Of a stretch of 47,034 nt of DNA, positions 6,677 to 42,645 are shown piece after piece. The position numbers were made by a program, and so were the translations under genes. How positions within the stretch are numbered: the first letter of the stretch is position 1; every line of letters begins with the position of its first letter. Source of the DNA: Spirochaetota bacterium (GTDB lineage: Bacteria; Spirochaetota; GWE2-31-10). The notes beneath the pieces are model-generated. The model had not been told where the DNA came from and ran no database searches. It worked only from the letters and a program-made list of their open reading frames with translations. The stretch spans positions 1-47,034 of the forward strand of contig JAKSBL010000019.1 in the NCBI GenBank assembly GCA_022361115.1, given 5' to 3'.

Positions 6677-7570
6677 ATGGAAAATACTAAAAAAAAGTCA
6701 ACCTGGGCTACAAAGGTCGGATTAGCTGAAATGTTAAAAGGCGGGGTAATTATGGATGTTACGACTGCTGAGGAAGCTAAAATTGCTGAAGATGCCGGAG
6801 CATCTGCTGTTATGGCTTTGGAAAGAGTACCAGCCGATATTCGACGTGATGGTGGTGTGGCACGAATGAGTGATCCTGAGATGATCTTAAAAATAAAAGA
6901 ATCAGTAAGTATCCCGGTTATGGCAAAATGTCGAATTGGCCACTTGGCAGAGGCTCAAATTTTACAAGCTATTGGAGTTGATTTTATTGATGAATCTGAA
7001 GTACTTACTCCTGCAGATGATGATTATCATATTAATAAGCATGATTTTGCCGTTCCCTTTGTTTGTGGATGTCGTGACTTAGGAGAAGCCTTACGAAGAA
7101 TTGGTGAAGGGGCCGCCATGATTCGTACAAAAGGTGAAGCAGGAACTGGAAATATTGTAGAGGCAGTTCGACATATGCGAACTGTCATGGATGGTTTGCA
7201 GCGGATTCAGATTTTATCAGCTGAACAACTAATGACAGAGGCTAAAAATCTGGGAGCTCCCTATGAACTTTTAGTACAGATAAAAAAAACAGGTAAATTA
7301 CCAGTTCCAAATTTTTCTGCCGGAGGAATAGCCTCACCTGCTGATGTTAGTTTAATGCGGCAATTAGGTGCTGAAGCAGTATTTGTTGGTTCTGGTATTT
7401 TTAAATCTCAGTATCCAGTCAGACGAGCTCGAGCAATTGTTGAAGCTTGTACCTATTATGATCTACCCGATAAGTTGGCAAAAATAGCAGAAGGGTTGGG
7501 GGAAGCAATGAGGGGCCTGGAGATTAGCCAAATCAATGAGAAAGAATTGCTGGCAACCAGGGGATGGTAA
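6677..7570 (+). CDS. pdxS: Pyridoxal 5'-phosphate synthase, lyase subunit PdxS
   Basis: 297 aa with near-canonical PdxS/SNZ sequence ('GGVIMDV', '[12 protein letters not shown]', 'VMAKCRIGH', '[11 protein letters not shown]', '[11 protein letters not shown]'). Strong GGAGA RBS. Confidence 0.95.
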
Positions 7571-7577
7571 CTCTGCT

Positions 7578-8144
7578 ATGAAAACCATTGGAGTATTAGC
7601 TTTACAGGGGGCTGTGGAAAAGCATTTAGCGAAAATCAAATTTTCAGGAAACAAAGGGGTAGCTATTCGTACCAATGAGGAGCTTTCTCAAATTGATGGT
7701 TTGATTTTGCCAGGTGGTGAGAGTTCAGTCATGAAAAAGCTGTTAATACAAAATAATATTTTGAATACTCTAAAAAGTAAAATACAATCTGGATTACCTG
7801 TATTTGGTACTTGTGCTGGTTTGATTTTACTAGCTAAAAGAATTGAAAATGATCAACCAACTTTAGAAGCGTTAAACATTACAGTCCAAAGAAATGGTTA
7901 TGGAAGTCAATTGGAAAGTTTTGAAGCCCCTTTAACTTATCACTTGAAAGTTCTTTCTGAAAAGAAAGCAATCTTTATCCGTGCTCCGGTAATCAAAGCT
8001 GTCGATCCAAAAGTAGAAATCTTAGCCAAACTGGATCAAACTCCAGTTATGGTTAGGCAAAAACATTTACTAGCAGCAACTTTTCATCCGGAATTAACCG
8101 AAAATTCAGCAGTGCACCAATATTTTATTAAAGAAATTTGTTAA
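7578..8144 (+). CDS. pdxT: PLP synthase glutaminase subunit PdxT
   Basis: 'MKTIGVLALQGAV', 'GTCAGLILL' (nucleophile Cys) and 'FHPEL' (His/Glu of the triad). I chose the ATG at 7578, 8 nt after the pdxS stop, over the ORF-track start at 7536, which overlaps pdxS and adds a non-homologous 14 aa. Confidence 0.9.
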   Translation: MKTIGVLALQGAVEKHLAKIKFSGNKGVAIRTNEELSQIDGLILPGGESSVMKKLLIQNNILNTLKSKIQSGLPVFGTCAGLILLAKRIENDQPTLEALNITVQRNGYGSQLESFEAPLTYHLKVLSEKKAIFIRAPVIKAVDPKVEILAKLDQTPVMVRQKHLLAATFHPELTENSAVHQYFIKEIC

Positions 8145-12890: not shown

Positions 12891-13160
12891 ATGTCAAAAC
12901 AATTAGATGAATTTCTTAAAAACTCAAAAGTTGCTGAAAAAATAAAGACTACCCCACAAGTGGTTTTGCAAACCTTGGAAACTTCCTCTGCAATGTTGGA
13001 AAAATATCGCCAGGAAGGAAAAATTATTTTACCCAATCATAGTAATAAATACCATTTAATGATTGATAATCAGCTGATCGCAGAAGGAGTGATGATTCAA
13101 AAACAAGGGCAGTCATATTTTAAAATTACCAAAATGTTAGAGCAAAAGGAGAGAGTATGA
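12891..13160 (+). CDS. Divergent SpoA (FliN/SctQ C-terminal type) domain protein
   Basis: 89 aa from the ATG at 12891 (GAGGAG 6 nt upstream); the ORF-track start at 12885 is a TTG. The C-terminal half 'KIILPNHSNKYHLMIDNQLIAEGVMIQKQGQSYFKITKMLEQKER' lines up by eye with FliN '[48 protein letters not shown]'. The stop overlaps the next start (ATGA). Confidence 0.5.
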   Translation: MSKQLDEFLKNSKVAEKIKTTPQVVLQTLETSSAMLEKYRQEGKIILPNHSNKYHLMIDNQLIAEGVMIQKQGQSYFKITKMLEQKERV

Positions 13161-13402
13161 AACTGGAAAGCATTGCAAAAATTGGTATTCCTGTAGAAGT
13201 TGTTTTAGGAGACTCCTGTTTATCAGTGGATCAAATAGCAAAAATCGGAGAAGGTTCCATTATTCGACTGGATAGTATTGCCGGAGAACCAGTAGAATTT
13301 CGAGCAGCAGGAGAAAAGATTGCTTTAGGTGAAGTGATTATTATTGAAGATAATTTTGGTATTCGTATCACTAGAATCTTAACAGGAGAAGAGGATGAAT
13401 AA
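13157..13402 (+). CDS. fliN: FliN-family (SpoA domain only) protein
   Basis: 81 aa. 'IPVEVVLGDSCLSVDQIAKIGEGSIIRLDSIAGEPVEFRAAGEKIALGEVIIIEDNFGIRITRIL' is a canonical FliN/SpoA domain. GGAGAG RBS. It overlaps both neighbouring genes. Confidence 0.85.
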   Translation: MKLESIAKIGIPVEVVLGDSCLSVDQIAKIGEGSIIRLDSIAGEPVEFRAAGEKIALGEVIIIEDNFGIRITRILTGEEDE

Positions 13403-15188
13403 CAAGTATGTTAAGGAAAATTTTATTAATATCAATTGTCATGATGATCAAATTCCCAGAATTAAAATTTACAATTTTAGACGGCCTGATAAGTTTTCTC
13501 GTGATCAAATTCGGACAATTAGTATTATTTATGAAACCTTTGCACATCAGGCAAGTTTTACACTTTCATCCAGCCTTAGAACAGAAGTAATTTTACATGT
13601 TAAATCAGTAGATCAATGTACCTATGAAGAATTTGTTTTATCCAGTTCCAATCCGAGTGTATTTGGAGTATTTCAATCTTCACCTCTCTATGGTAAATTT
13701 ATTATTGCATTAGAAAATGAAATTTTGTTTGCTATGTTAGATCGTGCTTTTGGTGGATCCGGAGAGTTAAGAAAGCTCAAAATCAATCGTGAAATAACCC
13801 GGTTTGAGGCAGCTTTTATAGAAAAAATCTTGGTCGATAGATTGTTTAAGGATCTGGAGAATGGCTGGTCAAGAATTATAAAAGTTCGGAATCAGCTGGA
13901 GCGATTAGAGGTAAATCCCCAATTTGTTCAAATAATTCCTCCATCCGATATGGTTGTTGTGGTGATGTTAAAAATAAATATTGGTGATCAAGAAAGGCGA
14001 ATTTTTTTTTGTTTACCCTATATTACTTTAGAACCAATAGTCCATCGCTTAAGTGGGCAAAATTGGTATGCAATGCAGAAGAAAAGAGCTCCTAGTGAAT
14101 CCTTTCTAACCAAATTAGCTGATTTAAAATCTGATTCAGTGATTTATACTCCAGTTGAAAAATTGTCATTAAGTAAATTATCAAATTTAAAAAAAGGAGA
14201 TTGTCTTCGTCTTTCCGAATTTCATGAACATACTGCTTACTTAAGGGTTCAGAATAAAAATATTTTTCAATTAAAAAAAGTAAAAGAACAAAAAAAAGAT
14301 TTCAATGAATTTACTATTTTGAATAAAGGAGATAGTTTTCCAAATTCTACAATAATCCCTCTAAAGAAAAATGATAGGGATAATGAAATTTATCTTCCTG
14401 AATGGGTAAGTCAAATTCAAAAAATGATAGCTTCTTTTAATGATCAACTTCTGGACATCCAAAACAAACAGGATGAATTGACCGATCAAATCTCTTTTAG
14501 TCATTCTCAAGGTAGAAAAGAGGAACTAGAAGAAAAACCATTTCATTTTATACATCAATTAGATCCTGTTCAGTTTTTTACAATGATTCAATATGAGCAT
14601 CCACAACTGTTAGCTTTTTTATTTTCCTATTTAGAAGCCGCTTATGCTGCACAAGTCATTGATATGTATTCTGAAGAAATGCAAGCTGAAATATTACACA
14701 GGATTAAAAATCTACAGTCAGTTACTCCACAATTAATAAAAGATTCAGAATCATTGCTAAAAACCAAGATGAGTATTATTGAAAATGAACGATTTTGCTC
14801 TTCAGGTGGAATGGAACAAGTAGAAGAGATTATCCAGTTTTTTGATAAAGAAAGTGAAAAGCGTTTAGTTTCTCGTTTAGATGATACCGAAGCTGATATT
14901 CAAGTAGGTAGTTCAAAAAAAATATCTCGGATGAATTTATCTCAATTGAATTCACAACAAATGAAATTAATTCTAGAAAAGTTAGATGATAAAGATCGTT
15001 TAATACTTTTACATTATTTTAATGGATTAAATGTGACAGATTACTTAAACAGCCTGGATGATGAGGCAAGAACCCATTTACAAAATAATATTTACCAAAT
15101 ATCTAATGCTAAACCTATTGAAATTAGTGATTCTGTGACCAGAGTTTATCAAATTATTGAGGAGTTAAAGGAAGAAGGGATATTTTAA
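13395..15188 (+). CDS. fliM: FliM (N/middle plus SpoA C-domain) fused to FliG middle and C-terminal domains, in one 597-aa polypeptide
   Basis: Residues ~24-215 read as FliM ('YNFRRPDKFSRDQIRTISIIYETFA', 'LDRAFGGSGE' GGxG motif, 'CLPYITLEPI'). Residues ~235-310 read as the FliM SpoA domain ('LSKLSNLKKGDCLRL...AYLRVQNKNIF'). Residues ~385-597 read as FliG_M/FliG_C ('YEHPQLLAFLFSYLEAAYAAQV...EMQAEILHRI', 'SSGGMEQVEEII', 'LILEKLDDKDRLILL', 'IIEELKEEGIF'). The frame is continuous with no internal stop. Confidence 0.75.
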   Translation: MNNKYVKENFININCHDDQIPRIKIYNFRRPDKFSRDQIRTISIIYETFAHQASFTLSSSLRTEVILHVKSVDQCTYEEFVLSSSNPSVFGVFQSSPLYGKFIIALENEILFAMLDRAFGGSGELRKLKINREITRFEAAFIEKILVDRLFKDLENGWSRIIKVRNQLERLEVNPQFVQIIPPSDMVVVVMLKINIGDQERRIFFCLPYITLEPIVHRLSGQNWYAMQKKRAPSESFLTKLADLKSDSVIYTPVEKLSLSKLSNLKKGDCLRLSEFHEHTAYLRVQNKNIFQLKKVKEQKKDFNEFTILNKGDSFPNSTIIPLKKNDRDNEIYLPEWVSQIQKMIASFNDQLLDIQNKQDELTDQISFSHSQGRKEELEEKPFHFIHQLDPVQFFTMIQYEHPQLLAFLFSYLEAAYAAQVIDMYSEEMQAEILHRIKNLQSVTPQLIKDSESLLKTKMSIIENERFCSSGGMEQVEEIIQFFDKESEKRLVSRLDDTEADIQVGSSKKISRMNLSQLNSQQMKLILEKLDDKDRLILLHYFNGLNVTDYLNSLDDEARTHLQNNIYQISNAKPIEISDSVTRVYQIIEELKEEGIF

Positions 15189-15267: not shown

Positions 15268-16062
15268 ATGAGTAATAGATTGCATTCTCTTTTTCCATTT
15301 GCAGTAAATAGCTTCTTAAGTAAATATACACTAAAAGAACTAGATAAACGATATTATCATATTATCTATTACCAGGATGCAAAGGTTACTATAAATGGAC
15401 AGCAGTATAATGGATCGTTTATTTTTGGTGAAGCTAAGGATAACCAGTTAACAGCCAAAATCCAACAATTAAAAATAGCAAAAATTATCAACTTTGATCC
15501 AATTTTGTTTTCCAGTTATTCTTTAAATGAATTTGAAAAAAGTATTATAGATGACTTTTTTGGGGATTTTTCTATTATTCCATTGGTAAACAAAGACTCT
15601 CATCACATCAAATTAATAATCAATGTGTTGGAAGAGGAATTTAAAAAAAAAGCTAAAGGGTATCATACGATTATCCGGTCTCGATTGTTAGAGTTATTCG
15701 TTTATATATTTCGAGCTAAAGAAAATAATCAAAAACAGAATAATGCTGAACCTCCTATATTAAAACTTACAAATTATATTAAGAACCATTTTGAAAAAGA
15801 TATTCAGTTATTAGAGTTGGCAGATTTACTAGGATGGAATCCCAGTTATCTGTCCAGAGTATTTAAGGAAAAAAATGGTGTGAATATTTTTTATTATATT
15901 AGTCAATTAAGGATTAGGGAGGCCTGTCGGTTGCTAAAAACTACAAATTTTTCGATTATTGAGATTTCTGAACAGGTCGGATTTAATAACCTTACTTCTT
16001 TTAATCGAACTTTTAAGAAGATAACAAATCGCTCTCCAAGAGATTATCGAGGTAATAAATAA
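15268..16062 (+). CDS. AraC/XylS family transcriptional regulator
   Basis: The C-terminal 100 aa carry the double HTH ('LADLLGWNPSYLSRVFKEK...', 'ISEQVGFNNLTSFNRTFKKITNRSPRDYR'). Confidence 0.85.
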   Translation: MSNRLHSLFPFAVNSFLSKYTLKELDKRYYHIIYYQDAKVTINGQQYNGSFIFGEAKDNQLTAKIQQLKIAKIINFDPILFSSYSLNEFEKSIIDDFFGDFSIIPLVNKDSHHIKLIINVLEEEFKKKAKGYHTIIRSRLLELFVYIFRAKENNQKQNNAEPPILKLTNYIKNHFEKDIQLLELADLLGWNPSYLSRVFKEKNGVNIFYYISQLRIREACRLLKTTNFSIIEISEQVGFNNLTSFNRTFKKITNRSPRDYRGNK

Positions 16063-18689: not shown

Positions 18690-19886
18690 ATGTACGTACT
18701 TGTTTTTAACTGTGGTTCTTCTTCCATCAAATATCAACTGATTGATATTAATACTAAGGAAGCAAAATGTCGTGGATTATTAGAAAGAATTGGATTAACT
18801 GGTTCAAAGTTAACTCATCGTCTTGGTGAAGATAAACATATCATTGAAAAAGATATTGATAATCATGATATGGGAGCAAAAGTAATTTTTGATACAGTAA
18901 CTGATGCTAAAATGGGAGCCATTTCTGATTTAGGTGAAATCAGAGTGGTAGGTCACCGAGTTGTTCATGGTGGTGAAAACTATTCTCAAGCTGTTTTGAT
19001 AAACGGTGATGTTGAAAAAACAATTGAAGACTGTTTTGATTTAGCCCCTCTGCATAATCCAGCTAATCTCATGGGAATTCAAGCTTGTAAGAAGTTATTA
19101 GGAGATATTCCCCAGGTTGCCGTTTTTGATACTGCCTTTCATCAAACCATGCCTAAACATGCATATCTCTATGCTATTCCTTATGATTATTATACGAAAC
19201 ATAAAATTCGCCGTTATGGATTTCATGGTACCAGTCATAAGTATGTTTCTGAACGTGCAGCAGAAATCTTAGGTAAAAAATATGATGATTTAAAGATCAT
19301 TACCTGTCATTTAGGAAATGGTGCTTCAATTGCAGCAATCAAACATGGGAGATCAGTGGATACTTCAATGGGATTTACTCCATTAGCTGGTTTAATCATG
19401 GGAACCCGTTCTGGTGATATTGACCCTTCTATTGTTCCATTTTTGATGAAAGCGGAAGAGTTGAATGAAAAAGATGTTGACACCATTATGAACAAACATT
19501 CAGGTGTTCTGGGTATATCTGGTATTTCTTCTGATATGAGAGATATTGAAAACAAAGCCTGGAATGAAAAAAATGAACGGGCTCAATTAGCTTTAGATAT
19601 GTACCACTACCGTATTACTCAATATATTGGTGCTTATGCTGCAGCTATGAATGGGGTAGATGTGATTATTTTTACTGGTGGCGTTGGTGAGAAAGGCTCA
19701 GAAACAAGAGAAGAAATACTGAAAAACCTTTCCTATCTGGGAGTTAATCTAGATAAAGAGAAAAATAAACCACGTGGTGAAGAAATCATTGTAACAACAG
19801 CAGATTCTAAAACTATTGCTATGGTTGTACCAACCAATGAGGAATTAGAAATCGCCATGGAATCTTTAAAGATTGTAAATAAATAA
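18690..19886 (+). CDS. ackA: Acetate kinase
   Basis: 398 aa with 'VLVFNCGSSSIKYQL', 'GHRVVHGG', 'APLHNPANL', 'FDTAFHQTMP', 'YGFHGTSH', 'CHLGNGASI' and 'GGVGE'. Confidence 0.93.
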   Translation: MYVLVFNCGSSSIKYQLIDINTKEAKCRGLLERIGLTGSKLTHRLGEDKHIIEKDIDNHDMGAKVIFDTVTDAKMGAISDLGEIRVVGHRVVHGGENYSQAVLINGDVEKTIEDCFDLAPLHNPANLMGIQACKKLLGDIPQVAVFDTAFHQTMPKHAYLYAIPYDYYTKHKIRRYGFHGTSHKYVSERAAEILGKKYDDLKIITCHLGNGASIAAIKHGRSVDTSMGFTPLAGLIMGTRSGDIDPSIVPFLMKAEELNEKDVDTIMNKHSGVLGISGISSDMRDIENKAWNEKNERAQLALDMYHYRITQYIGAYAAAMNGVDVIIFTGGVGEKGSETREEILKNLSYLGVNLDKEKNKPRGEEIIVTTADSKTIAMVVPTNEELEIAMESLKIVNK

Positions 19887-24375: not shown

Positions 24376-25965
24376 GTGAAAGTTCGATTACAGTTGTTTT
24401 TTAAAGATCGAATTGGAATTGTGGCTGAGATAACTGCCTTATTGGTAGATTATGATGTGAATATTACTGCTATGGAAGTCAATCGTAATTCAAATCATGC
24501 AGAAGTCTATCTGGAAGTTGAGGTAGGAAAGCAAAACCTTAATCGAGATGCTTATTATCATATGCTGAGTAAAATTTCAGATTTAAAAGAGATCAACTTT
24601 ATTGAAACACTCCCTTTTGAAGAAAAGGAAAACCGGTCTCAGGTTATCTTAAATAATATCAATGAGGGGGTTCTTTCTATTGATAATCAGGGTAAAATTA
24701 CCATGATCAATCAGTTTGCCCAAAAGATCCTGAATTGTAAACAGGATGAAGTGATCGGACAAGGCATTCAAAGTCTGAATTTGCCTGATTACTCCATTCT
24801 GGATTGCTTAAAAGGGAGAACTTTTGATAATCTGAAACAGGATCTGATTACTACCAATAAACGAATTCAGTTTTTTGCCTCAGGAAAACCAATCTATGAC
24901 TCCAATCATCAAATTATTGGTGCTGTCGAGATAATGAAAGATATGAAGGATATTAAAGATCTGGCAAAAACCTTATCTCAACCCCAGCAAATCAATTTTA
25001 GTGATTATATTGGAAAACACACAGCTGTTTGGGAAGCCATTTCCTTTGCTCAAAAAATAGCTCAAACTGATTCTATTATTTCTTTACGTGGTGAAAGTGG
25101 GACCGGGAAAGAGCTATTTGCCAGGGCAATTCATACTGAAAGTTGTCGAACTGGTTCTTTTGTTGCAATTAATTGTGCTGCTTTGCCGGAAGCATTACTG
25201 GAAAGTGAACTTTTTGGTTATGTTGGAGGTGCATTTACTGGAGCAAAAAAAGAAGGAAAACCTGGTTTGTTTGAGATTGCTAATAATGGTACAGTTTTTT
25301 TAGATGAAATTGGAGAAATGCCTATAAATCTCCAGGCAAAAATGTTGCGATTAATTCAAGAACAAAGGATTCGTAGAATAGGGGGAGCCAAAGAAATTGC
25401 TATAAATACCCGGATTATTACTGCTACTAATAAAGAATTGGAAAAAATGGTTAAAGAAAAAACATTTCGAGAAGATTTTTATTATCGAATTAATGTATTG
25501 CCTGTTTATCTTCCTCCCTTGAGGGAGCGTAAAGAAGATATTCCCATTTTAGTCGAGCATTTTTTATTTCAACTCTCTTCCAAATTGGATCAACCCAATA
25601 AAGTGATGACAGAACAGGCTCTGGAAAAACTAATGTGTCACAACTGGCCAGGTAATATTCGGGAGCTTCGTAATGTAATTGAACGAGCAGCTATTCTTTC
25701 AGATGAAACAAATATTGATGAAAGTAGAATTGTTTTTAGTCATGAGATTACAGAAAACAGAAAAGGACTAAAAAAAATCATACTAACAAACAAAATCAAA
25801 AATCATTCTCTATCTGCTATGCTGGATCGTCATGAAAATAAAATTTTATCTGAAGTTTTGCAAACTTCTAAAAGTATCCGTCAAGCTGCAAAATCTTTAG
25901 GAATTTCCCATAGCACTCTTATCAATAAGATTAAAAAATACAAACTGGCAGTGGTTACAAAATAA
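24376..25965 (+). CDS. Sigma-54-dependent transcriptional activator, TyrR-like architecture (ACT, PAS, AAA+, Fis-type HTH)
   Basis: 529 aa with a GTG start after AGAGGAGG. N-terminal ACT-like 'FKDRIGIVAEITALL'. PAS ('NINEGVLSIDNQGKITMINQFAQKIL'). Walker A 'GESGTGKE'. Intact 'GAFTGA'. 'WPGNIRELRNVIERA'. C-terminal HTH 'SIRQAAKSLGISHSTLINKIKKY'. Confidence 0.9.
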   Translation: MKVRLQLFFKDRIGIVAEITALLVDYDVNITAMEVNRNSNHAEVYLEVEVGKQNLNRDAYYHMLSKISDLKEINFIETLPFEEKENRSQVILNNINEGVLSIDNQGKITMINQFAQKILNCKQDEVIGQGIQSLNLPDYSILDCLKGRTFDNLKQDLITTNKRIQFFASGKPIYDSNHQIIGAVEIMKDMKDIKDLAKTLSQPQQINFSDYIGKHTAVWEAISFAQKIAQTDSIISLRGESGTGKELFARAIHTESCRTGSFVAINCAALPEALLESELFGYVGGAFTGAKKEGKPGLFEIANNGTVFLDEIGEMPINLQAKMLRLIQEQRIRRIGGAKEIAINTRIITATNKELEKMVKEKTFREDFYYRINVLPVYLPPLRERKEDIPILVEHFLFQLSSKLDQPNKVMTEQALEKLMCHNWPGNIRELRNVIERAAILSDETNIDESRIVFSHEITENRKGLKKIILTNKIKNHSLSAMLDRHENKILSEVLQTSKSIRQAAKSLGISHSTLINKIKKYKLAVVTK

Positions 25966-26021
25966 ACCACTGGTCAAAAATCTAACCACTGAATGGTTAT
26001 TATTGGTTACAAAATAAACCA
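25952..26021. promoter_or_regulatory. Candidate upstream activator sites (repeated palindromes) for the ald sigma-54 promoter
   Basis: Perfect 18-bp direct repeat tggttacaaaataaacca at 25952-25969 and 26004-26021, each roughly TGGTT-N8-AACCA. Between them lies the palindrome taacca-ctgaa-tggtta (25983-25999). The sites are 170-240 bp upstream of the -24/-12 element. Confidence 0.45.
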
Positions 26022-26191
26022 TTACTATTAAAGTTATAATCAAATTGTAATCTTATAAAAAAAAATTTACTTTATAACCTTTATAAAAATTTTTCAAAAA
26101 CTCAAAATTTGCAAAAATATCATCTTTTATCTCTCATATTAGGTTAAAACAATCATATAAACCCAAATTAAATTTCCGATCATGATTTCAT

Positions 26192-26207
26192 TGGCATGCT
26201 GATTGCT
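26192..26207 (+). promoter_or_regulatory. Sigma-54 (-24/-12) promoter of ald
   Basis: TGGCAT-gctga-TTGCT (GG at 26193-26194, GC at 26205-26206). About 37 nt upstream of the ald ATG, with AGGAGG in between. Confidence 0.65.
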
Positions 26208-26243
26208 AATTTAGTGTTCAAAGTACAAATTTAGGAGGATTCA

Positions 26244-27380
26244 ATGATCGTTGGAATCTTGAAGGAGATCAAAACTGCAGAAAACCGAGTCTGCATGACT
26301 CCTGCAGGTGTCGAAATGATGACCCAATTTGGGCACCGGGTCTTAGTAGAAAAAGAAAGTGGTGTTAGAAGCGGATTTTCTGATCAGGAGTATATTGATC
26401 ATGGTGCTGAAATTATCTATACACCAAAAGAGATTTTTGACCAGGCAGAAATGATTATGCATGTAAAAGAGCCTTTGCCATCAGAGTATGAGTTTATCCG
26501 TAAAGATCAAATTATCTTTACTTATCTTCATTTGGCTGCAAAAAAATCATTAACTCAAGCATTAATCAAAAGTAAATCAATTTGCATTGCTTATGAAACC
26601 ATTCAAAAAGCTGACCAATCGTTGCCCTTGTTAACGCCTATGAGTGAAGTTGCTGGACGTATGGCTACTCAGCAGGGAGCAAAATATTTGGAAATGACGC
26701 AAGGTGGGCTTGGTGAATTATTAGGTGGTGTTCCCGGTGTAAATCCCGGTACAGTTGTTGTCATTGGAGGCGGAGTGGTTGGTGTCAATGCTGCTAAAAT
26801 GGCTTGCGGTTTGGGGGCAAGAGTTTATTTGCTTGACCTGGATTTAGATCGATTACGCTATCTTTCTGATGTTATGCCAAGTAACTGTATTCCATTAATG
26901 TCCAATCCTGTAACTGTCCGGCAACTAATTAAAGATGCAGATCTGGTCATTGGCGCAGTTTTAATACCTGGAGCCAAAGCACCAAAACTCATATCTAAAG
27001 ATATGCTTAAAACCATGAAAAAAGGTGCCATATTGGTTGATGTTGCTATTGATCAAGGTGGTTGTTTTGAAACTTCAAAACCTACTAATCATACCCAACC
27101 CACTTATATTATTGATGGTGTCATTCATTATTGTGTGACAAATATGCCTGGTGCCGTACCCAAAACATCTACCATTGCTTTGACAAATGCTACATTACCT
27201 TATGCATTAGAAATTGCTAATAAAGGTTGGAGAAAGGCCATGTTAGAAAATGATGAAATAAAATATGGAGCTAACATCATCAAAGGCAAAGTCACTTATC
27301 AAGCTGTTGCTGCTGCTTTTGAGATGAAGTATACACCAATTGAAGAACTTTTAAATGAGAAGGCTCTTGCAAGTGTTTAG
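26244..27380 (+). CDS. ald: Alanine dehydrogenase
   Basis: 378 aa with 'MIVGILKEIKTAENRVCMTPAGV', 'GGGVVGVNAAKMACGLGA' (NAD fold), 'DVAIDQGG' and 'HYCVTNMPGAVP'. Confidence 0.93.
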   Translation: MIVGILKEIKTAENRVCMTPAGVEMMTQFGHRVLVEKESGVRSGFSDQEYIDHGAEIIYTPKEIFDQAEMIMHVKEPLPSEYEFIRKDQIIFTYLHLAAKKSLTQALIKSKSICIAYETIQKADQSLPLLTPMSEVAGRMATQQGAKYLEMTQGGLGELLGGVPGVNPGTVVVIGGGVVGVNAAKMACGLGARVYLLDLDLDRLRYLSDVMPSNCIPLMSNPVTVRQLIKDADLVIGAVLIPGAKAPKLISKDMLKTMKKGAILVDVAIDQGGCFETSKPTNHTQPTYIIDGVIHYCVTNMPGAVPKTSTIALTNATLPYALEIANKGWRKAMLENDEIKYGANIIKGKVTYQAVAAAFEMKYTPIEELLNEKALASV

Positions 27381-27514
27381 TAGTAAGAGCTCTCAATCAA
27401 AAATGATTAAAAATACAAACAAGACATTTTATGTCTATTGATATTGAAAGATAAACTATCTTTTTTATACAAATGAATCAAGAACGGTATTTAAGGTGAG
27501 AAAGGAAGTAAATT

Positions 27515-28897
27515 ATGGAAAATATTATGCAAACAATTGAAATGGTTATTGGTAAAGTCGGAGCCTTTGCCTGGGGACCTCCAATGCTGATTTTATTGGT
27601 TGGAACAGGTTTTTGGTTAACTTTTGCTTTGAGAGGAATTCAATTCAGAAAGTTATGGGGATCATTGTATTTAGGACTCATTAAACGAAAGGATTCTGAT
27701 CATGGTGAAGGGGACATCAGTCATTTTCAAGCATTAATGACCGCTTTATCAGCTACAGTTGGGACTGGAAATATAGCTGGTGTAGCCACAGCAGTTGCAG
27801 CTGGTGGTCCTGGTGCTTTGTTCTGGATGTGGATAACTGGCTTAGTTGGGATGGCTACGAAATATTCAGAAGCATTATTAGCTGTAAAATATCGAGAAAA
27901 AGATGAAGCTGGTAATATGAGCGGAGGGCCAATGTACTATATTTCCAAAGGTTTAGGTTGGAAATGGTTGGGAATGCTGTTTGCCATATTTGCTGCTGTT
28001 GCTGCTTTTGGAATAGGTGATATGGTCCAATCAAATTCTATTGCTGCAGCTGTCAACGCAACTTTTAATATCCCTCCATTAGTAACTGGAATGATTCTGA
28101 TGGTTTTTACTGCACTGGTTGTTTTAGGAGGTATTAAAAGTATTGGTATGGTAACTGGCGTTTTAGTACCTATTATGATTGTCTTTTATATGGGGGGAGC
28201 TTTAGTAATCATTTTATTAAATATTTCTGGTGTTCCTGCTGCAATTGCTTTAATAGTAAAGCATGCCTTTACTCCTACAGCTGCAGCTGGTGGATTTGCT
28301 GGTTCTGCTGTAATGCTGGCAATGAGAATGGGGGTATCTCGAGGTGTATTTTCTAATGAATCTGGTTTAGGCAGCTCTCCTATAGCTGCTGCAGCTGCCC
28401 AGACAAAACATCCTGTCACCCAGGCTCTGGTTTCAATGTCCCAAACCTTTATTGATACTATCGTAGTTTGTACTATGACCGGTTTAGTGTTAGTTCTGAC
28501 AGGTGCCTGGACAAGTGGTAAAACCGGAGCAGAATTAACAGTAATGGCTTTTCAAAAAGGTATTTGGGGAGGAAATTACATTGTTACTATTGGTTTAATT
28601 TTATTTGCATACTCCACTATTTTAGGGTGGTGCTACTATGGAGAAAAATCAGTAGAATATATTTTTGGTATTAAATCAGTCATGCCTTATCGTATCTTGT
28701 TTATTATCTTTGTTGGAGTTGGTTCAGTTGCACAATTAAATCTGGTCTGGTCTTTATCTGATACTTTCAATGGCTTAATGGCAATACCAAACTTAATTGG
28801 TTTGTTGTTATTAACACCAGTCATTGTTAAGGAAACGAATAAACATTTTCAATTAAAGAAGGAGGAACAAATAACTGGCAACAATTTAAAGAACTAA
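27515..28897 (+). CDS. Sodium:alanine (alanine/glycine:cation) symporter, AGCS family
   Basis: 460 aa, polytopic, with '[30 protein letters not shown]' and '[17 protein letters not shown]', both AGCS hallmarks. Confidence 0.9.
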
Positions 28898-29120: not shown

Positions 29121-30374
29121 GTGAAGAACACTAAAATATTGGTTATTAATTGCGGATCCTCATCATTGAAATATCAATTGATTAGTATGCCACAGGGTAC
29201 TATGTTAGCCAAAGGCAATGTAGAACGGATTGGAGATATTAAAAAAGCTTTCATTTATCAAAAGACCAGTGATGGTAGAGAGCTCATCAAGAAATCTGGA
29301 GAAATGAAAAATAATTTACTACTTGCTGATCATAAGGCTGCTTTTCAGTATGTTATTGAAGCTTTAATTGAAAAAAAATTTGGAATTTTAAATGGTTTGA
29401 AGGACATAGATATCGTTGCTCATCGTGTTGTTCATGGTGGAGAACATTATCGCGATTCAGTAATGGTAACTAAGGAGGTTTTAAAGGTTATTGAGGATCT
29501 GTCTGATCTAGCTCCCTTACACAATCCGGCAAATGTACAGGGAATTCGTTCTGCTCTGGAAGTTTTACCTGGTGTTCCTCAAACAGCTACCTTTGATACA
29601 GCATTTCATCAAACGATACCAGAACATGCTTATCGATATGCTCTGCCAACTGAATTGTATGAGAAGTATAAAATTCGTAAATATGGTTTTCATGGAACTT
29701 CTCACCGTTATGTTGCCAATCAGGCTGTTCAAATGCTGAATCGATCGATTGAAAATACCAATCTCATTAGCTGTCACTTAGGAAATGGCTGTTCCATAAC
29801 AGCAATTGCAGGTGGAAAATCTGTTGATACTTCCATGGGTTTTACCCCTTTGGAAGGATTAATGATGGGAACTCGATGCGGAGATATAGATCCAGCTATT
29901 ATTCCTTATCTGGTTATGGATAAAGGGTACAATATTGAGGAAGTGAATACAATTCTCAATAAATGTAGTGGAGCATTAGGATTATTTGAGAAAACCAACG
30001 ATATGCGGGATATTGTAGAAGCTGCTAAAGGTGGAGATAAAAAGGCTCAATTAACCCTGGATATCTATACCTATCGGATTAAAAAATACATTGGAGCCTA
30101 TTGTGCTCTGTTGATTAAAGTGGATGCCTTGATTTTTACAGGTGGAGTAGGGCAAAATAGCTGGTTTTTAAGAGAGATGATCTGTAAGTATTTGCAGAAT
30201 ATTGGAATTCATCTGGATAAAGAACAGAATAAAATCACAGGTTGTAAGACTGGCCAGATTTCTTTTGATTATTCTCCCATCACAATCTTAGTTGTTCCAA
30301 CAAATGAAGAACAGCAAATGGCAATGGATGCTTACCAGTTGGTTGGCACAAAAAAATTAAAGAAAGTGGTTTAA
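29121..30374 (+). CDS. ackA: Second acetate/propionate kinase family paralog
   Basis: 417 aa with a GTG start after AAGGGAG. 'ILVINCGSSSLKYQL', 'AHRVVHGG', 'APLHNPAN', 'FDTAFHQTIP', 'YGFHGTSH', 'CHLGNGCSI' and 'GGVGQ'. Confidence 0.85.
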   Translation: MKNTKILVINCGSSSLKYQLISMPQGTMLAKGNVERIGDIKKAFIYQKTSDGRELIKKSGEMKNNLLLADHKAAFQYVIEALIEKKFGILNGLKDIDIVAHRVVHGGEHYRDSVMVTKEVLKVIEDLSDLAPLHNPANVQGIRSALEVLPGVPQTATFDTAFHQTIPEHAYRYALPTELYEKYKIRKYGFHGTSHRYVANQAVQMLNRSIENTNLISCHLGNGCSITAIAGGKSVDTSMGFTPLEGLMMGTRCGDIDPAIIPYLVMDKGYNIEEVNTILNKCSGALGLFEKTNDMRDIVEAAKGGDKKAQLTLDIYTYRIKKYIGAYCALLIKVDALIFTGGVGQNSWFLREMICKYLQNIGIHLDKEQNKITGCKTGQISFDYSPITILVVPTNEEQQMAMDAYQLVGTKKLKKVV

Positions 30375-35212: not shown

Positions 35213-35932
35213 TTGAAACTTTTAGGTGTTAATATTGATCATATTGCAACTTTGAGAAATGCTAGAGGAGAATTTTTCCCCCCCCTTTCTCATGCTGCCT
35301 CCATTGTAGAACAAGCTGGTGGAGATTTTATTACCATCCATCTAAGAGAAGATCGACGTCATATAAATGATGATGATTTAGCCCATCTTTCTCAAACAGT
35401 CACTACCTATTTAAATCTGGAAATGGCCTGTAATGAAGACGTGTTAAAACGGGCAATCGAGCACAAGCCTTTTAAAGCTACTTTGGTTCCAGAACGACGA
35501 GAAGAAGTGACGACCGAAGGGGGGCTGGATGTAGTGAATCACTTTGACAAGATCAAAGAATATGTCACTGCTTTAAAAGAAAATAATATTTTCGTTAGCC
35601 TTTTTATTGAACCAGATATCAAAGGGATTGATAAGTTCATGGAAACAGGGGCCGATGATATTGAAATTCATACTGGTGGCTATTCTCTGGCAACACCTCA
35701 GCAAAAGCCAGTTGTTTTAAAAAGGATATCTGAGTTTGCTCAAAATGCTCAAAAAAAGGGATTGAAAATTTGTGCAGGCCATGGTTTAACCTATCATAAC
35801 ATTAGCCCGATCTGTCAGATCAAAGAAATTGAAGAATTTAATATTGGTTATTCCATTATTGTCCGTTCAATTTTTTCAGGATTAAAAAACGCTGTAAGTG
35901 ATATGAAACGCTTGATCAAAGAAGCAAACTAA
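35213..35932 (+). CDS. pdxJ: Pyridoxine 5'-phosphate synthase (DXP-dependent route)
   Basis: 239 aa with a TTG start after AAAGGAG. 'LGVNIDHIATLRNARG', 'ITIHLREDRRHI', 'LVPERREEVTTEGGLDV', 'IEIHTG' and 'AGHGLTYHN' are near-identical to E. coli PdxJ motifs. Confidence 0.93.
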   Translation: MKLLGVNIDHIATLRNARGEFFPPLSHAASIVEQAGGDFITIHLREDRRHINDDDLAHLSQTVTTYLNLEMACNEDVLKRAIEHKPFKATLVPERREEVTTEGGLDVVNHFDKIKEYVTALKENNIFVSLFIEPDIKGIDKFMETGADDIEIHTGGYSLATPQQKPVVLKRISEFAQNAQKKGLKICAGHGLTYHNISPICQIKEIEEFNIGYSIIVRSIFSGLKNAVSDMKRLIKEAN

Positions 35933-41727: not shown

Positions 41728-42645
41728 ATGATGAAACACAACCTCCAGATTCTACTAATCGAAGATAATCCTGATGATATTCATTATATGCTGGAGTTGT
41801 TTTCCATCTTAAATAATGAGGCGCTTAATGAGTATCAGTTCAAAGTTATTACAAAAGGGACTATAAGCGATTCTCTTGATTATTTAGTTGAAAATCATGT
41901 GGATGTTATCCTTTTAGATCTTGCCCTGCCAGATAACCGGGGAATAGAATGCCTGGAAAAATTTGAAGAAATTATTTTTGAGATCCCTATTATTGTTTTA
42001 ACAGGCTTAAATGATCAAGCTTTAGCGAAAAAAATGGTTCGTTCCGGTGTAGAAGATTTTTTGATTAAAGATACAATCAGTAAAGAATTATTACTAAGAA
42101 CCATACGATTTTCAATTGAACGACATAAAATGTTGTTTATGTTAAAGCAATTAGCTGTTATGGATGACTTAACAGGTTTGTACAATCGAAGAGGGTTCTA
42201 TACCCTGGCACACCATCATTGTAAACTGGCCAAAAGAAGAGAGGCTAATGTTTTAATTTTTTATATTGATATTGATAAAATGAAACAAATTAATGATAAT
42301 CATGGACATAAAGAAGGTGATATTGCCATAGTTGATACAGCAAATATCTTAAAGGAAAGCTTTAGAGATACAGATATTATTGCCCGTATTGGGGGAGATG
42401 AATTTGTGGTTTTAGCTATAGAAGCTCATGCTAATCACAGAAATATGCTATTAACCCGCTTAGAAGATACACTGCTGCAATATCAAAAAAATAATAATCG
42501 TCTGTTTCAGTTATCTCTCAGTTATGGGGTGGAACATTATATCAACGTAACCCATACCCAAATTGATGAAATCTTAGAAAATGCAGATAATAAAATGTAT
42601 GAACATAAGCGGAAGAAGAAGATGGCTGAAGAGAGAAAACCTTAG
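41728..42645 (+). CDS. Response regulator receiver plus GGDEF diguanylate cyclase
   Basis: 305 aa. REC ('ILLIEDNPDD', 'DVILLDLALPD'). GGDEF domain with 'LTGLYNRRGF', an intact 'GGDEF' and an RxxD I-site ('RDTD') five residues upstream. Confidence 0.9.
   Translation: MMKHNLQILLIEDNPDDIHYMLELFSILNNEALNEYQFKVITKGTISDSLDYLVENHVDVILLDLALPDNRGIECLEKFEEIIFEIPIIVLTGLNDQALAKKMVRSGVEDFLIKDTISKELLLRTIRFSIERHKMLFMLKQLAVMDDLTGLYNRRGFYTLAHHHCKLAKRREANVLIFYIDIDKMKQINDNHGHKEGDIAIVDTANILKESFRDTDIIARIGGDEFVVLAIEAHANHRNMLLTRLEDTLLQYQKNNNRLFQLSLSYGVEHYINVTHTQIDEILENADNKMYEHKRKKKMAEERKP

What the first reader, a model, noticed from the sequence alone, without database searches (positions are those of the whole stretch)
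13395..15188. Natural FliM-FliG(MC) fusion that keeps the FliM-FliG interface motifs but lacks input, anchoring and torque motifs
In the 597-aa translation, the FliM GGxG motif ('LDRAFGGSG') and the FliG EHPQ(R) motif ('YEHPQ...ILHRI') are both present. These normally contact each other. Three canonical functional elements look absent. (1) The N-terminus ('MNNKYVKENFININCHDDQIPR') has no LSQxEIDALL-type CheY-P docking peptide. (2) There is no about-100-aa FliG N-domain, which binds FliF; FliM sequence occupies that position. (3) In my hand alignment to Thermotoga/E. coli FliG, 'NMSKRAAALLKDELEY' aligns to 'SLDDEARTHLQNNIYQ'. That alignment replaces the conserved Arg and the acidic pair of the torque helix (Glu; Asn-Asn), and the MFxF hinge reads 'ISRM'. 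A covalently tethered, stator-blind and CheY-blind switch unit would be mechanistically unusual.
Basis: partly seen in the sequence, partly recalled or inferred. Interest (0 to 1): 0.8.

Follow-up and report, generated by a model that had tools for sequence, protein, structure and literature searches.

The report
Natural FliM–FliG fusion switch cassette
This gene really does fuse two flagellar rotor proteins, FliM and most of FliG, into one chain, and it belongs to a conserved, uncharacterised four-gene cassette of uncultivated spirochaetes that keeps the contact between the two proteins but has lost the parts that link a rotor to chemotaxis signals, to its membrane anchor and to the motor's power units.

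Summary
ORF 13395-15188 (597 aa) contains a FliM middle domain, a divergent FliM C-terminal (SpoA) domain, a linker of about 70 residues with a 35-residue helix, then FliG_M and FliG_C. GGSG and EHPQ are present. The CheY-P docking peptide, FliG_N, the torque-helix charges and the MFxF hinge are absent.

It is not a frameshift artefact. At least 140 full-length homologues (50%-identity representatives) share the architecture. Every member that carries an organism name is from Spirochaetota.

In 12 of 12 independent loci the fusion is the last gene of a translationally coupled trio: a degenerate FliN-like protein (X, about 85 aa), FliN (about 80 aa), then the fusion. A cupin-type AraC regulator sits next to it, and the flanks are never flagellar.

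Across the family GGxG, EHPQ, Gly-Gly and MFVF are conserved. The equivalents of E. coli R281, D288 and D289 are not, and only 10 of 140 members keep the CheY peptide. The window copy is unusually degenerate: it has also lost MFVF and the K264 equivalent.

Best reading (inferred): a self-contained paralogous C-ring unit, cut off from motor input and output and expressed under AraC control. Its function is unknown, and I found no paper describing it. I rate it a new variant of a known kind.

The parts
12891..13160 (+). Gene X: 89-aa degenerate FliN-like (SpoA) protein. The mechanical ORF starts at TTG 12885; the likely start is ATG 12891, 7 nt after GAGGAG.
   Evidence: hhalign of the X alignment (A2) against the cassette FliN alignment (A3): 93% probability, E 3.4e-7. 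Weak PF01052 match. Present upstream of FliN in 12/12 loci. 166 homologous clusters, nearly all annotated 'hypothetical'. Sequence read.
13157..13402 (+). Dedicated FliN (81 aa, SpoA domain only). Its ATG overlaps the stop of X (ATGA).
   Evidence: PF01052 E 4.1e-18; TIGR02480 fliN E 9.1e-20, 70.4 bits, below the 84.05 cut-off. 45-53% identical to the cassette FliN of five other loci. Overlap read.
13395..15188 (+). FliM::FliG_MC fusion gene (597 aa). Its start overlaps the end of FliN by 8 nt and is preceded by AGGAGAAGAGG.
13461..14057 (+). FliM middle domain (aa 23-221), including GGSG at aa 120-123 (nt 13752-13763).
   Evidence: PF02154 E 1.2e-53. AF2 pLDDT 93-97 across most of the domain, with one lower block. 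Foldseek TM 0.94-0.96 and rmsd 1.2-1.5 A to FliM_M of T. maritima and H. pylori. G120 invariant and G121 at least 90% in A1.
14127..14324 (+). Divergent FliM C-terminal SpoA-like domain (aa 245-310).
   Evidence: TIGR01397 alignment runs to model position 303 of 320. Weak PF01052. Beta-rich with pLDDT about 63-85, mostly 71-85, in the AF2 model. hhalign against cassette FliN gives 86% probability, over its first 32 columns only.
14325..14531 (+). Linker (aa 311-379): a disordered stretch, then a 35-residue helix (aa 334-368, nt 14394-14498) ending in the family motif RQxELxDQLxF (here NKQDELTDQISF, aa 357-368).
   Evidence: AF2: pLDDT below 50 for aa 312-333, helix H334-368 at pLDDT about 85. 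The motif is visible in the alignment. No stop in this frame, against 9 and 12 stops in the other two frames across the linker. No convincing internal SD plus start codon.
14532..14804 (+). FliG middle domain (aa 380-470), with EHPQ at aa 401-404 (nt 14595-14606) and Gly-Gly at aa 471-472.
   Evidence: PF14841 E 4.5e-16. pLDDT 93-97. Foldseek TM 0.94 to 4fq0_C. E401 and Q404 invariant in A1.
14805..15185 (+). Degenerate FliG C-terminal domain (aa 471-597). ISRM replaces MFxF (aa 510-513). The torque-helix equivalent is SLDDEARTHLQNNIYQ (aa 553-568).
   Evidence: phmmer alignment to 1lkv, 4fhr_B and 3usy over aa 380-596. PF01706 only E 0.026. pLDDT 53-89. Column statistics.
15268..16062 (+). 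AraC-family regulator (264 aa), a conserved neighbour of the cassette.
   Evidence: HTH_18 E 5.6e-21. An AraC gene is adjacent and co-directional in 12/12 loci: upstream in 10 of the 11 other loci, downstream in the window and L089. Cupin_6 or AraC_binding N-domains are detectable in several orthologues.

Best explanation
The gene is the large subunit of a conserved cassette found in uncultivated Spirochaetota: FliN-like X, FliN, FliM::FliG_MC, plus an adjacent AraC regulator.

Shown:
- The cassette encodes every layer of a flagellar C-ring protomer except the FliF-binding FliG_N. These layers are FliG_M and FliG_C on top, FliM_M in the middle, and FliM_C plus two small SpoA proteins at the base.
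- The three genes overlap or abut, which suggests translational coupling.
- The FliM GGxG and FliG EHPQ contact motifs are under strong conservation.
- The CheY-P docking peptide, FliG_N and the core torque-helix charges are not conserved across the family.

Inferred:
- The three proteins assemble into a self-contained, paralogous C-ring-like unit. In it FliG_M docks on the FliM_M of the same chain.
- The linker of about 70 residues, with its 35-residue helix, is long enough to run from the SpoA base up past FliM_M.
- Covalent tethering and a private FliN pair keep this unit from mixing with the canonical FliG/FliM/FliN of the same cell.
- The unit can neither receive CheY-P, nor bind the MS ring by itself, nor be driven by MotA. 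It is therefore not a torque-generating rotor.
- It is made when the AraC regulator is active. It then acts outside the torque path, most likely as a conditional modulator or scaffold that competes for or recruits shared flagellar partners.

The window's own copy is an unusually degenerate member: MFVF is lost, the K264 equivalent is H, and the R297 equivalent is K.
For: - Architecture and folds.
- Family size and continuity of the fusion: (at least 140 full-length representatives at 50% identity).
- Cassette in 12/12 independent loci, with unrelated and never flagellar flanks.
- X is FliN-like.
- Gene overlaps and Shine-Dalgarno sites.
- Motif statistics, n=140: EHPQ is E 133, H 94, P 115, Q 132. 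Gly-Gly is 114 and 134. MFVF is 122, 136, 123, 136. At the R281 position the seven commonest residues (E 38, A 22, D 19 lead) do not include Arg. D288 is A 38, E 21, K 17. D289 is R 35, A 26, E 15, D 15.
- The torque helix is the least conserved segment of FliG_MC: 2.88 against 2.15 bits of entropy.
- CheY peptide in 10/140 fusions against 51/64 canonical-length FliM.
- Fast divergence of the fusion's FliM_M: fusion-fusion identity 46%, against 71% within the canonical-length FliM set (which includes about ten ambiguous hits, possibly truncated fusions). This fits a protein that need only co-evolve with its cassette partners.
- Roles of FliG_D1 (binds FliF_C), the torque helix on FliG_D5 (binds MotA/B) and three FliN_C per protomer: PMC11087270.
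Against: - No experiment, no expression data and no localisation exist for any member.
- The cis FliM_M/FliG_M contact could not be verified. The tools return no coordinates or PAE. pTM was 0.56 for the full chain and 0.54 for a truncated construct.
- I could not check whether the same genomes also carry canonical fliG, fliM, fliN or motA.
- The family keeps the Gly-Gly linker, ARM_C and the MFVF hinge, and 7% of members keep the CheY peptide. These features serve directional switching inside a real motor, and they would be unnecessary in a static scaffold.
- The cassette FliN is very canonical in sequence, so it could well mix with native partners.
Confidence: 0.45

Rival explanations
1. Subunit substitution in the real motor. 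Fusion units, with their FliN and X, insert into the canonical C-ring in place of a FliG plus FliM pair. Neighbouring native FliG holds them through ARM_M/ARM_C stacking, and FliM-FliM and FliN contacts add further support. This creates rotor positions that bind neither CheY-P nor the stator. The result would be an AraC-inducible brake, clutch or bias-setter, or a pole-specific motor variant comparable in spirit to Borrelia FliG1.
For: - The family keeps the elements needed for ring polymerisation and conformational switching: ARM_C, Gly-Gly and MFVF.
- It also keeps canonical-looking FliN.
- All named members are Spirochaetota, a phylum that is nearly always flagellated.
- Some members keep the CheY peptide.
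- Asymmetric FliG1 in B. burgdorferi shows that spirochaetes do use FliG paralogues to differentiate motors (PMC7225975).
Against: - A private FliN pair and a covalent tether are unnecessary for insertion into an existing ring.
- The fusion's FliM_M evolves much faster than canonical FliM (46% against 71% mean identity). That is unexpected if it must stay compatible with slowly evolving native neighbours.
- Every known connection to the rest of the motor is lost.
Confidence: 0.27
2. Still a working rotor with changed partners. The linker helix, or another cassette part, replaces FliG_N in docking to FliF or to native FliG. The altered torque helix matches a divergent stator encoded elsewhere in the genome.
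For: - The conserved linker motif RQxELxDQLxF suggests a specific binding function.
- The K264 and R297 equivalents are conserved in the family: K/R in 132 of 140 and R/K in 127 of 140.
- The FliG_C core is conserved.
Against: - The torque-helix positions are variable rather than coherently swapped, as shown by their high entropy. That argues for a lost interface, not a new one.
- No stator or FliF gene lies in any of the 12 loci.
- The window copy also lacks the hinge.
Confidence: 0.1
3. The window's copy is a decaying paralogue, non-functional or nearly so. Selection on its FliG_C is relaxed even though the family as a whole is functional.
For: - It is an outlier for features the family conserves. 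MFVF reads ISRM, and only 1 to 2 of 140 members share each of these substitutions at the two Phe positions. The K264 equivalent is H. 'PxLAEEIKK' is lost.
- It has the lowest domain HMM scores among the loci compared: FliG_MC 196 against 238-323.
- pLDDT is 53-70 for aa 470-520.
Against: - The ORF is an intact 597 codons in DNA of 30% G+C, where stops are frequent (P 1.7e-23).
- Its partners X, FliN and AraC are all intact, with good Shine-Dalgarno sites and coupled starts.
- GGSG, EHPQ and Gly-Gly are retained.
Confidence: 0.1
4. Artefact: a sequencing frameshift or misassembly has joined separate fliM-like and fliG-like genes.
For: None, beyond the fact that the window is a metagenomic contig for which no reads are available.
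Against: - At least 140 diverged homologues from JGI, ENA, NCBI and Logan assemblies have the same single ORF, with a conserved linker motif.
- Across the linker the reading frame has no stop, while the other two frames have 9 and 12.
Confidence: 0.01

Closest known systems
Canonical flagellar switch complex FliG / FliM / FliN (C-ring), e.g. Salmonella cryo-EM 8umd/8wiw and T. maritima FliM-FliG complex 4fhr
   Same: - The domain folds match: FliM_M TM 0.94-0.96, FliG_M TM 0.94.
- The GGxG-EHPQ contact motifs, the Gly-Gly linker and a SpoA base with several FliN-type domains per protomer are all present.
- The FliM domain is 42-51% identical to canonical FliM hits, and the named genome loci among them are spirochaetal.
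   Different: - One polypeptide instead of two.
- FliG_D1 and D2, which bind FliF, are absent.
- There is no CheY-P docking peptide.
- The torque-helix charges are not conserved.
- It is encoded away from flagellar operons, next to an AraC regulator, with its own FliN and a degenerate FliN-like protein.
- It scores below the NCBIfam cut-offs for both fliM (209.6 against 219.6) and fliG (94.8 against 226.7).
Laboratory fusions of switch proteins in Salmonella: FliF-FliG and FliM-FliN fusion mutants, and the FliM_C-FliN_C crystallisation fusion (PDB 4yxb/4yxc)
   Same: Neighbouring C-ring components are covalently linked, and this is compatible with folding. The crystallised fusions are mentioned in PMC5990795 and PMC11087270. 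That the motile fusion mutants exist rests on my own knowledge.
   Different: Those fusions are man-made or spontaneous laboratory mutants that join different pairs of proteins and retain motor function. This one is a natural, conserved FliM-to-FliG_MC fusion with its input and output motifs lost.
Borrelia burgdorferi FliG1 (second FliG paralogue)
   Same: It is a spirochaetal paralogue of a rotor protein that is not required for building flagella and that differentiates motors through asymmetric localisation (PMC7225975).
   Different: FliG1 is a stand-alone FliG, not fused to FliM, and has no FliN, X or AraC cassette. That it is full length is my own recollection; one search does not state it.
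FliY (CheC-like domain fused to FliN) and injectisome SctQ (FliM/FliN-like)
   Same: Both are natural multi-domain variants of C-ring components built from CheC/FliM-like and SpoA domains. The FliM_M of the fusion also matches FliY and CheC folds.
   Different: Neither contains FliG domains. SctQ works in a non-rotating sorting platform together with other T3SS genes, and none of those genes is near the cassette.

Membership tests
FliM (TIGR01397 / PF02154) | Middle CheC-like domain with the GGxG motif that contacts FliG_M | tested here: met
   PF02154 E 1.2e-53, aa 26-219. GGSG at aa 120-123. Foldseek TM 0.94-0.96.
FliM (TIGR01397 / PF02154) | N-terminal CheY-P docking peptide (LSQxEIDxLL) | tested here: not met
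   There is no match in the first 45 residues. The same regular expression finds it in 51/64 canonical-length FliM and 10/140 fusions.
FliM (TIGR01397 / PF02154) | C-terminal FliN-like SpoA domain | tested here: inconclusive
   The TIGR01397 alignment reaches model position 303 of 320. PF01052 gives only E 0.029. The AF2 model is beta-rich over aa 245-308. hhalign against FliN gives 86% probability, over 32 columns only.
FliM (TIGR01397 / PF02154) | Whole-protein score above the NCBIfam equivalog cut-off | tested here: not met
   209.6 bits against a cut-off of 219.6.
FliG (TIGR00207; PF14842 + PF14841 + PF01706) | N-terminal domain (FliG_D1/D2) that binds FliF_C | tested here: not met
   The TIGR00207 alignment starts at model position 106. 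The alignment to 3hjl starts at residue 107/108. The weak PF14842 hit lies over FliG_M (aa 402-498), so it is an ARM-repeat cross-match.
FliG (TIGR00207; PF14842 + PF14841 + PF01706) | Middle domain with the EHPQ(R) motif | tested here: met
   PF14841 E 4.5e-16. EHPQ at aa 401-404. TM 0.94 to 4fq0_C.
FliG (TIGR00207; PF14842 + PF14841 + PF01706) | Gly-Gly linker and MFxF hinge | tested here: not met
   Gly-Gly is present (aa 471-472), but MFVF aligns to I-S-R-M. In the family MFVF is kept at M 122, F 136, V 123, F 136 of 140.
FliG (TIGR00207; PF14842 + PF14841 + PF01706) | Charged torque-helix residues that contact MotA (E. coli K264, R281, D288, D289, R297; numbering from established literature) | tested here: not met
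   The window has H, E, N, N, K at these positions. In the family R281, D288 and D289 are not conserved, while K264 and R297 are.
FliG (TIGR00207; PF14842 + PF14841 + PF01706) | Whole-protein score above the NCBIfam equivalog cut-off | tested here: not met
   94.8 bits against a cut-off of 226.7.
Unnamed FliM::FliG_MC fusion cassette of Spirochaetota (defined here) | Single chain in the order FliM_M, FliM_C, helical linker with the RQxELxDQLxF motif, FliG_M, FliG_C | tested here: met
   Full-length alignment with 64 homologues (A1). The profile search gives 617.7 bits. The window was itself one of the sequences the profile was built from, so this score is inflated. The linker motif reads NKQDELTDQISF.
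Unnamed FliM::FliG_MC fusion cassette of Spirochaetota (defined here) | Preceded by overlapping genes for a FliN-like X protein and a FliN, with an adjacent co-directional AraC regulator | tested here: met
   In the window: X 12891-13160, FliN 13157-13402, AraC 15268-16062. The same set occurs in all 11 other independent loci, and L089 has the same gene order.
Known anti-phage defence systems (PADLOC) | Any cassette protein matching a defence-system model | tested here: not met
   No hit at E <= 0.01 for any of the four proteins.

The most novel reading that the evidence does not exclude
The cassette could be a C-ring-derived cooperative switch that has left the flagellum altogether. In this reading it is a free, self-assembling FliG_MC-FliM-FliN-X array. 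It keeps the bistable hinge machinery (Gly-Gly, ARM_C, MFVF) but no longer touches FliF, MotA or, in most lineages, CheY. Its conformational or assembly state would be read out by another partner, for example by controlling the adjacent AraC regulator through protein-protein contact. That would resemble the partner-switching control of the AraC-family regulator ExsA in type III secretion, a comparison I recall from memory and did not look up. It would be the first case of flagellar rotor proteins being reused as a non-motility signalling device.
Probability: 0.12. Interest if true: 0.9.

Novelty: new variant of a known kind. Interest (0 to 1): 0.62.

Why it matters
FliG, FliM and FliN are among the most studied proteins in bacterial motility. 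A natural, conserved chain that hard-wires FliM to FliG_MC while dropping the CheY input, the FliF anchor and the MotA contact would matter for four reasons.

1. It is a ready-made natural experiment on which C-ring interfaces can stand alone. It also gives an independent evolutionary confirmation of the 1:1 FliM_M-FliG_M contact.
2. It points to an unrecognised accessory module in spirochaetes. Their two polar motor sets must behave asymmetrically, and that control is still poorly understood.
3. Automatic annotation currently labels these genes simply 'FliM'. This inflates apparent fliM copy numbers and hides the family.
4. The fusion and its small partners may be a convenient, self-contained object for structural work on switch-complex assembly.

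Tried and rejected
- **Frameshift or misassembly.** Rejected, because of family-wide continuity of the ORF and the distribution of stops across frames.
- **Internal translation start for a separate FliG_MC product.** I found no ATG or GTG with a Shine-Dalgarno site in aa 295-392. The only candidate is a TTG at codon 362 with a weak AGGA. This is not supported, but it is not excluded.
- **Anti-phage defence system.** No PADLOC hits.
- **Coherent charge swap on the torque helix, implying a new stator.** Rejected. The columns are variable, not swapped.
- **FliM_M neighbour-joining tree to test a single origin of the fusions.** Uninformative. Canonical FliMs are a slow-evolving cluster nested among long fusion branches, and neither group is a clean clade. 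The case for a single origin rests on the shared linker motif and the shared cassette.
- **Cis FliM_M/FliG_M docking by AF2.** The full chain gave pTM 0.56. A truncated aa 23-470 construct with a 9-sequence alignment gave pLDDT 67 and pTM 0.54. No coordinates or PAE are returned, so the result is inconclusive.
- **Canonical FliG in the flanks of the 80 GTDB loci, for a spirochaetal side-by-side comparison.** None was present. T. maritima and H. pylori FliG were used instead.
- **Literature.** Four searches found no description of a natural FliM-FliG fusion.
- **Exact look-up of the window protein in the assembly index.** Not on record.
Full report
**1. What is in the sequence**

The ORF 13395-15188 (+) exists as described: 597 aa with an ATG start.
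- Pfam finds FliM (aa 26-219, E 1.2e-53) and FliG_M (aa 392-463, E 4.5e-16). It also gives sub-threshold hits to FliG_C (aa 514-595) and to the FliN-type SpoA domain (aa 256-292).
- The NCBIfam fliM model aligns to aa 21-294 (model positions 31-303 of 320). The fliG model aligns to aa 378-595 but starts only at model position 106. Both scores fall below the equivalog cut-offs: 209.6 against 219.6, and 94.8 against 226.7.
- PDB sequence searches give the same split. FliM_M chains (4gc8, 3soh, 4fhr_A, 2hp7) cover aa 23-224. FliG_MC chains (1lkv, 4fhr_B, 3usy) cover aa 380-596. Full-length FliG (3hjl) aligns only from its residue 107/108.

'NMSKRAAALLKDELEY' pairs with 'SLDDEARTHLQNNIYQ', and 'MFVF' pairs with 'I-SRM'. 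In E. coli numbering, which I take from the established literature on FliG-MotA charge interactions, the window has H at K264, E at R281, N at D288, N at D289 and K at R297.

The ORF is not accidental. The gene is 30% G+C, so the chance of 597 codons without a stop is 1.7e-23. The other two forward frames carry 59 and 68 stops.

**2. Structure**

An AlphaFold2 model built on a 65-sequence alignment has mean pLDDT 80.

| Segment | Residues | pLDDT |
|---|---|---|
| FliM_M | 30-220 | 93-97, with one lower block |
| Beta-rich SpoA-like FliM_C | 245-310 | about 63-85, mostly 71-85 |
| Disordered stretch | 312-333 | below 50 |
| Single long helix | 334-368 | about 85 |
| FliG_M | 380-470 | 93-97 |
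| FliG_C | 470-597 | 53-89 |

Foldseek against the PDB matches FliM_M at TM 0.94-0.96 (rmsd 1.2-1.5 A) and FliG_M at TM 0.94. It aligns aa 1-300 to whole Salmonella FliM from the C-ring cryo-EM structures.

I could not answer that. The tool returns no coordinates or PAE. pTM was 0.56 for the full chain. A truncated construct (aa 23-470, 9 sequences) was worse, at pLDDT 67 and pTM 0.54.

Geometry allows the contact. The linker has about 25 disordered residues, a 35-residue helix of about 5 nm, and about 12 more residues. By my estimate that can span the distance from the SpoA base to the top of FliM_M.

**3. It is a family, not a one-off**

The word-indexed search returned about 65 clusters of 596-640 aa with the same FliM + FliG_M + FliG_C architecture. 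All are only about 30% identical to the window protein.

A profile search of 1.84 billion 50%-identity representatives returned 150 top hits. Together with the first set, 145 proteins carry both a near-complete FliM_M and a near-complete FliG_MC, with a median length of 613 aa.

These sequences come from JGI, ENA, NCBI and Logan assemblies, so the fusion cannot be a local frameshift.

Every member that carries an organism name is spirochaetal:
- 'Spirochaetales bacterium' MBN1409420.1 and MBN2509439.1.
- GTDB MAGs of Spirochaetaceae and 'Spirochaetes' (L004 and L008).

The window itself also looks spirochaetal. Its FliM domain is 42-46% identical to canonical FliM of the named spirochaetal genome loci and up to 51% to the best canonical hits over the middle domain. 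Its acetate kinase is closest, among named hits, to a Spirochaetota MAG at 70%.

In the scan of GTDB species representatives, only 2 of the best 80 loci were fusions. None of the cultured species listed there (Brachyspira, Leptospira, Treponema bryantii, Brucepastera) showed one.

**4.

The 81-aa ORF just upstream (13157-13402) is a FliN: PF01052 E 4e-18, and TIGR02480 E 9e-20 (70.4 bits, below the 84.05 cut-off).

The ORF before it (X, 12891-13160) is a degenerate FliN-like SpoA protein. hhalign of the X alignment against the FliN alignment gives 93% probability, E 3.4e-7.

The three genes are tightly packed:
- The FliN ATG overlaps the stop of X (ATGA).
- The start of the fusion overlaps the end of FliN by 8 nt.
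- Each start has a good Shine-Dalgarno sequence.

An AraC-family regulator follows 80 nt downstream (15268-16062).

The same four genes occur in all 11 other independent loci I could inspect: L001/L002, L003, L004, L008, L084-L090.
- In ten of them the order is AraC-X-FliN-fusion.
- In the window and in L089 the order is X-FliN-fusion-AraC.
- The AraC proteins are orthologous-looking beyond the HTH domain. Several have detectable cupin or AraC_binding N-domains.
- The flanking genes differ in every locus and are never flagellar. In the window they are RecQ, a fatty-acid hydroxylase, AroA and other housekeeping genes.

X homologues form 166 clusters of proteins about 80-90 aa long, almost all annotated 'hypothetical'.

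**5. What is conserved and what is lost across the family** (n=140)

Conserved:
- FliM GGxG: G120 is invariant in A1.
- FliG EHPQ: E 133, H 94, P 115, Q 132.
- Gly-Gly: 114 and 134.
- The ARM_C segment.
- The MFVF hinge: 122, 136, 123, 136.
- The equivalents of K264 (K/R in 132) and R297 (R/K in 127).
- The helix after the torque helix (VRLxDVExAQQRIV).

Not conserved:
- The R281 equivalent: E 38, A 22 and D 19 lead, and Arg is not among the seven commonest residues.
- The D288 equivalent: A 38, E 21, K 17.
- The D289 equivalent: R 35, A 26, E 15, D 15.
- The torque-helix columns are the most variable part of FliG_MC: 2.88 against 2.15 bits of entropy.

Because these residues are variable rather than coherently swapped, the simplest reading is a lost interface, not a new one.

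Only 10 of 140 fusions have an N-terminal LSQxEIDxLL-like peptide, against 51 of 64 canonical-length FliMs. The few that keep it (for example P0065, P0006, P0023, P0037) show that the ancestor was an ordinary CheY-binding FliM.

No member has a FliG_N.

The window copy is an outlier. It has lost MFVF, the K264 equivalent and much of the C-terminal half of ARM_C. It also has the lowest FliG_MC profile score among the loci compared: 196 against 238-323.

**6. How it most likely works**

According to the Salmonella C-ring structures (PMC11087270):
- FliG_D1 binds FliF_C.
- The torque helix on FliG_D5 binds MotA/B.
- FliM_mid sits under FliG_D3.
- Each protomer has FliM_C plus three FliN_C at the base.

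The cassette therefore encodes a complete protomer minus the FliF anchor. Its FliM-FliG contact is preserved, but every link to the rest of the motor is gone: the CheY-P input, the MS-ring anchor and the stator contact.

The fusion's FliM_M evolves much faster than canonical FliM. Mean identity is 46% between fusions and 71% within the canonical-length FliM set, which includes about ten ambiguous hits that may be truncated fusions. This is the pattern expected if the domain only has to stay compatible with its own cassette partners.

The private FliN pair and the covalent tether are what one would expect if selection favoured keeping the unit apart from the canonical switch proteins in the same cell.

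My best explanation (confidence 0.45) is a self-contained, AraC-controlled, C-ring-like unit that generates no torque and acts as a conditional modulator or scaffold.

The main rival (0.27) is that the unit substitutes into the real C-ring as a 'dead' or bias-setting subunit. The retained Gly-Gly, ARM_C and MFVF switching elements, the very canonical FliN, and the residual CheY peptides in some lineages all favour this rival.

Less likely alternatives:
- A still-working rotor with changed partners (0.10).
- A decaying copy in this particular lineage (0.10).
- An artefact (0.01).

**7. Comparison with what is known**

The parts are unmistakably FliM, FliG and FliN homologues. However, the protein fails the membership tests for both FliM and FliG:
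- It has no CheY peptide and no FliG_N.
- It has no torque charges and no hinge.
- It scores below both NCBIfam equivalog cut-offs.

It is best described as a new, unnamed variant family.

Man-made or spontaneous FliF-FliG and FliM-FliN fusions are known, and FliM_C-FliN_C fusions have been crystallised. Spirochaetes are known to use a second FliG, Borrelia FliG1, which localises asymmetrically (PMC7225975).

Four full-text searches found no description of a natural FliM-FliG fusion. Source annotations call these proteins 'FliM' or 'FliM/FliG'.

**8. Limits**
- I could not test whether the same genomes also carry canonical flagellar genes.
- I had no read-level support for the frame in this contig.
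- I had no expression data.
- I could not test the cis interface.

The functional statements are inferences from conserved and lost motifs and from gene context.

Noticed in passing
P0199 (locus L092:228-1607), P0220; P0166 (L093:153-2519), P0213, P0193, P0216; P0144: Other natural architectures turned up among the profile hits. P0199 (459 aa, a complete ORF) and P0220 have the reverse order: FliG_M, then FliM_M, then a FliN-like C-terminus. Four proteins of 788-1123 aa have FliM_M, two tandem SpoA domains and then FliG_MC. One has FliM_M, FliG_MC and an extra FliG_C. Covalent FliG-FliM linkage therefore seems to have arisen in more than one form.
   Followed up: partly
L091 (GCA_964429895.1, CAYSEC010000117.1) compared with L090: This looks like the same species as the 3.2-Mb contig L090. 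Here, however, the cassette is broken after FliN. A 91-aa reverse ORF intervenes, and only a 287-aa FliG_MC ORF follows. This could be an assembly error or a disrupted copy.
   Followed up: no
L003:8955-9353: This locus has an extra X-like gene (132 aa, X-profile score 78) between AraC and the regular X, so X appears to be duplicated.
   Followed up: no
window 6677-8144 and 35213-35932: Genes of both pyridoxal-phosphate routes are on the same 47-kb contig. PdxS/PdxT (SOR_SNZ and SNO) belong to the DXP-independent route, and PdxJ belongs to the DXP-dependent route. That the two routes usually exclude each other is my recollection, not something tested here.
   Followed up: no
window 18690-19886 and 29121-30374: There are two acetate kinase paralogues about 10 kb apart (PF00871, E 1.5e-157 and 6.5e-143). 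The first is 70-73% identical to its best hits, and the best named hit is a Spirochaetota MAG.
   Followed up: partly
window 24376-28897: A sigma-54 activator with ACT and PAS sensor domains lies directly upstream of alanine dehydrogenase and a Na+:alanine symporter. This is probably an amino-acid-responsive regulon.
   Followed up: no
window 41728-42645: A response regulator with a GGDEF output domain (a diguanylate cyclase). It is the only gene on the contig, apart from the cassette, that is plausibly related to motility signalling.
   Followed up: no
P0490 (X homologue): One X-family protein is labelled 'Desulfobacterales bacterium' and sits on a 2.4-kb MAG contig. It is the only name outside Spirochaetota. 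This could be mis-binning or a sign of wider distribution.
   Followed up: no
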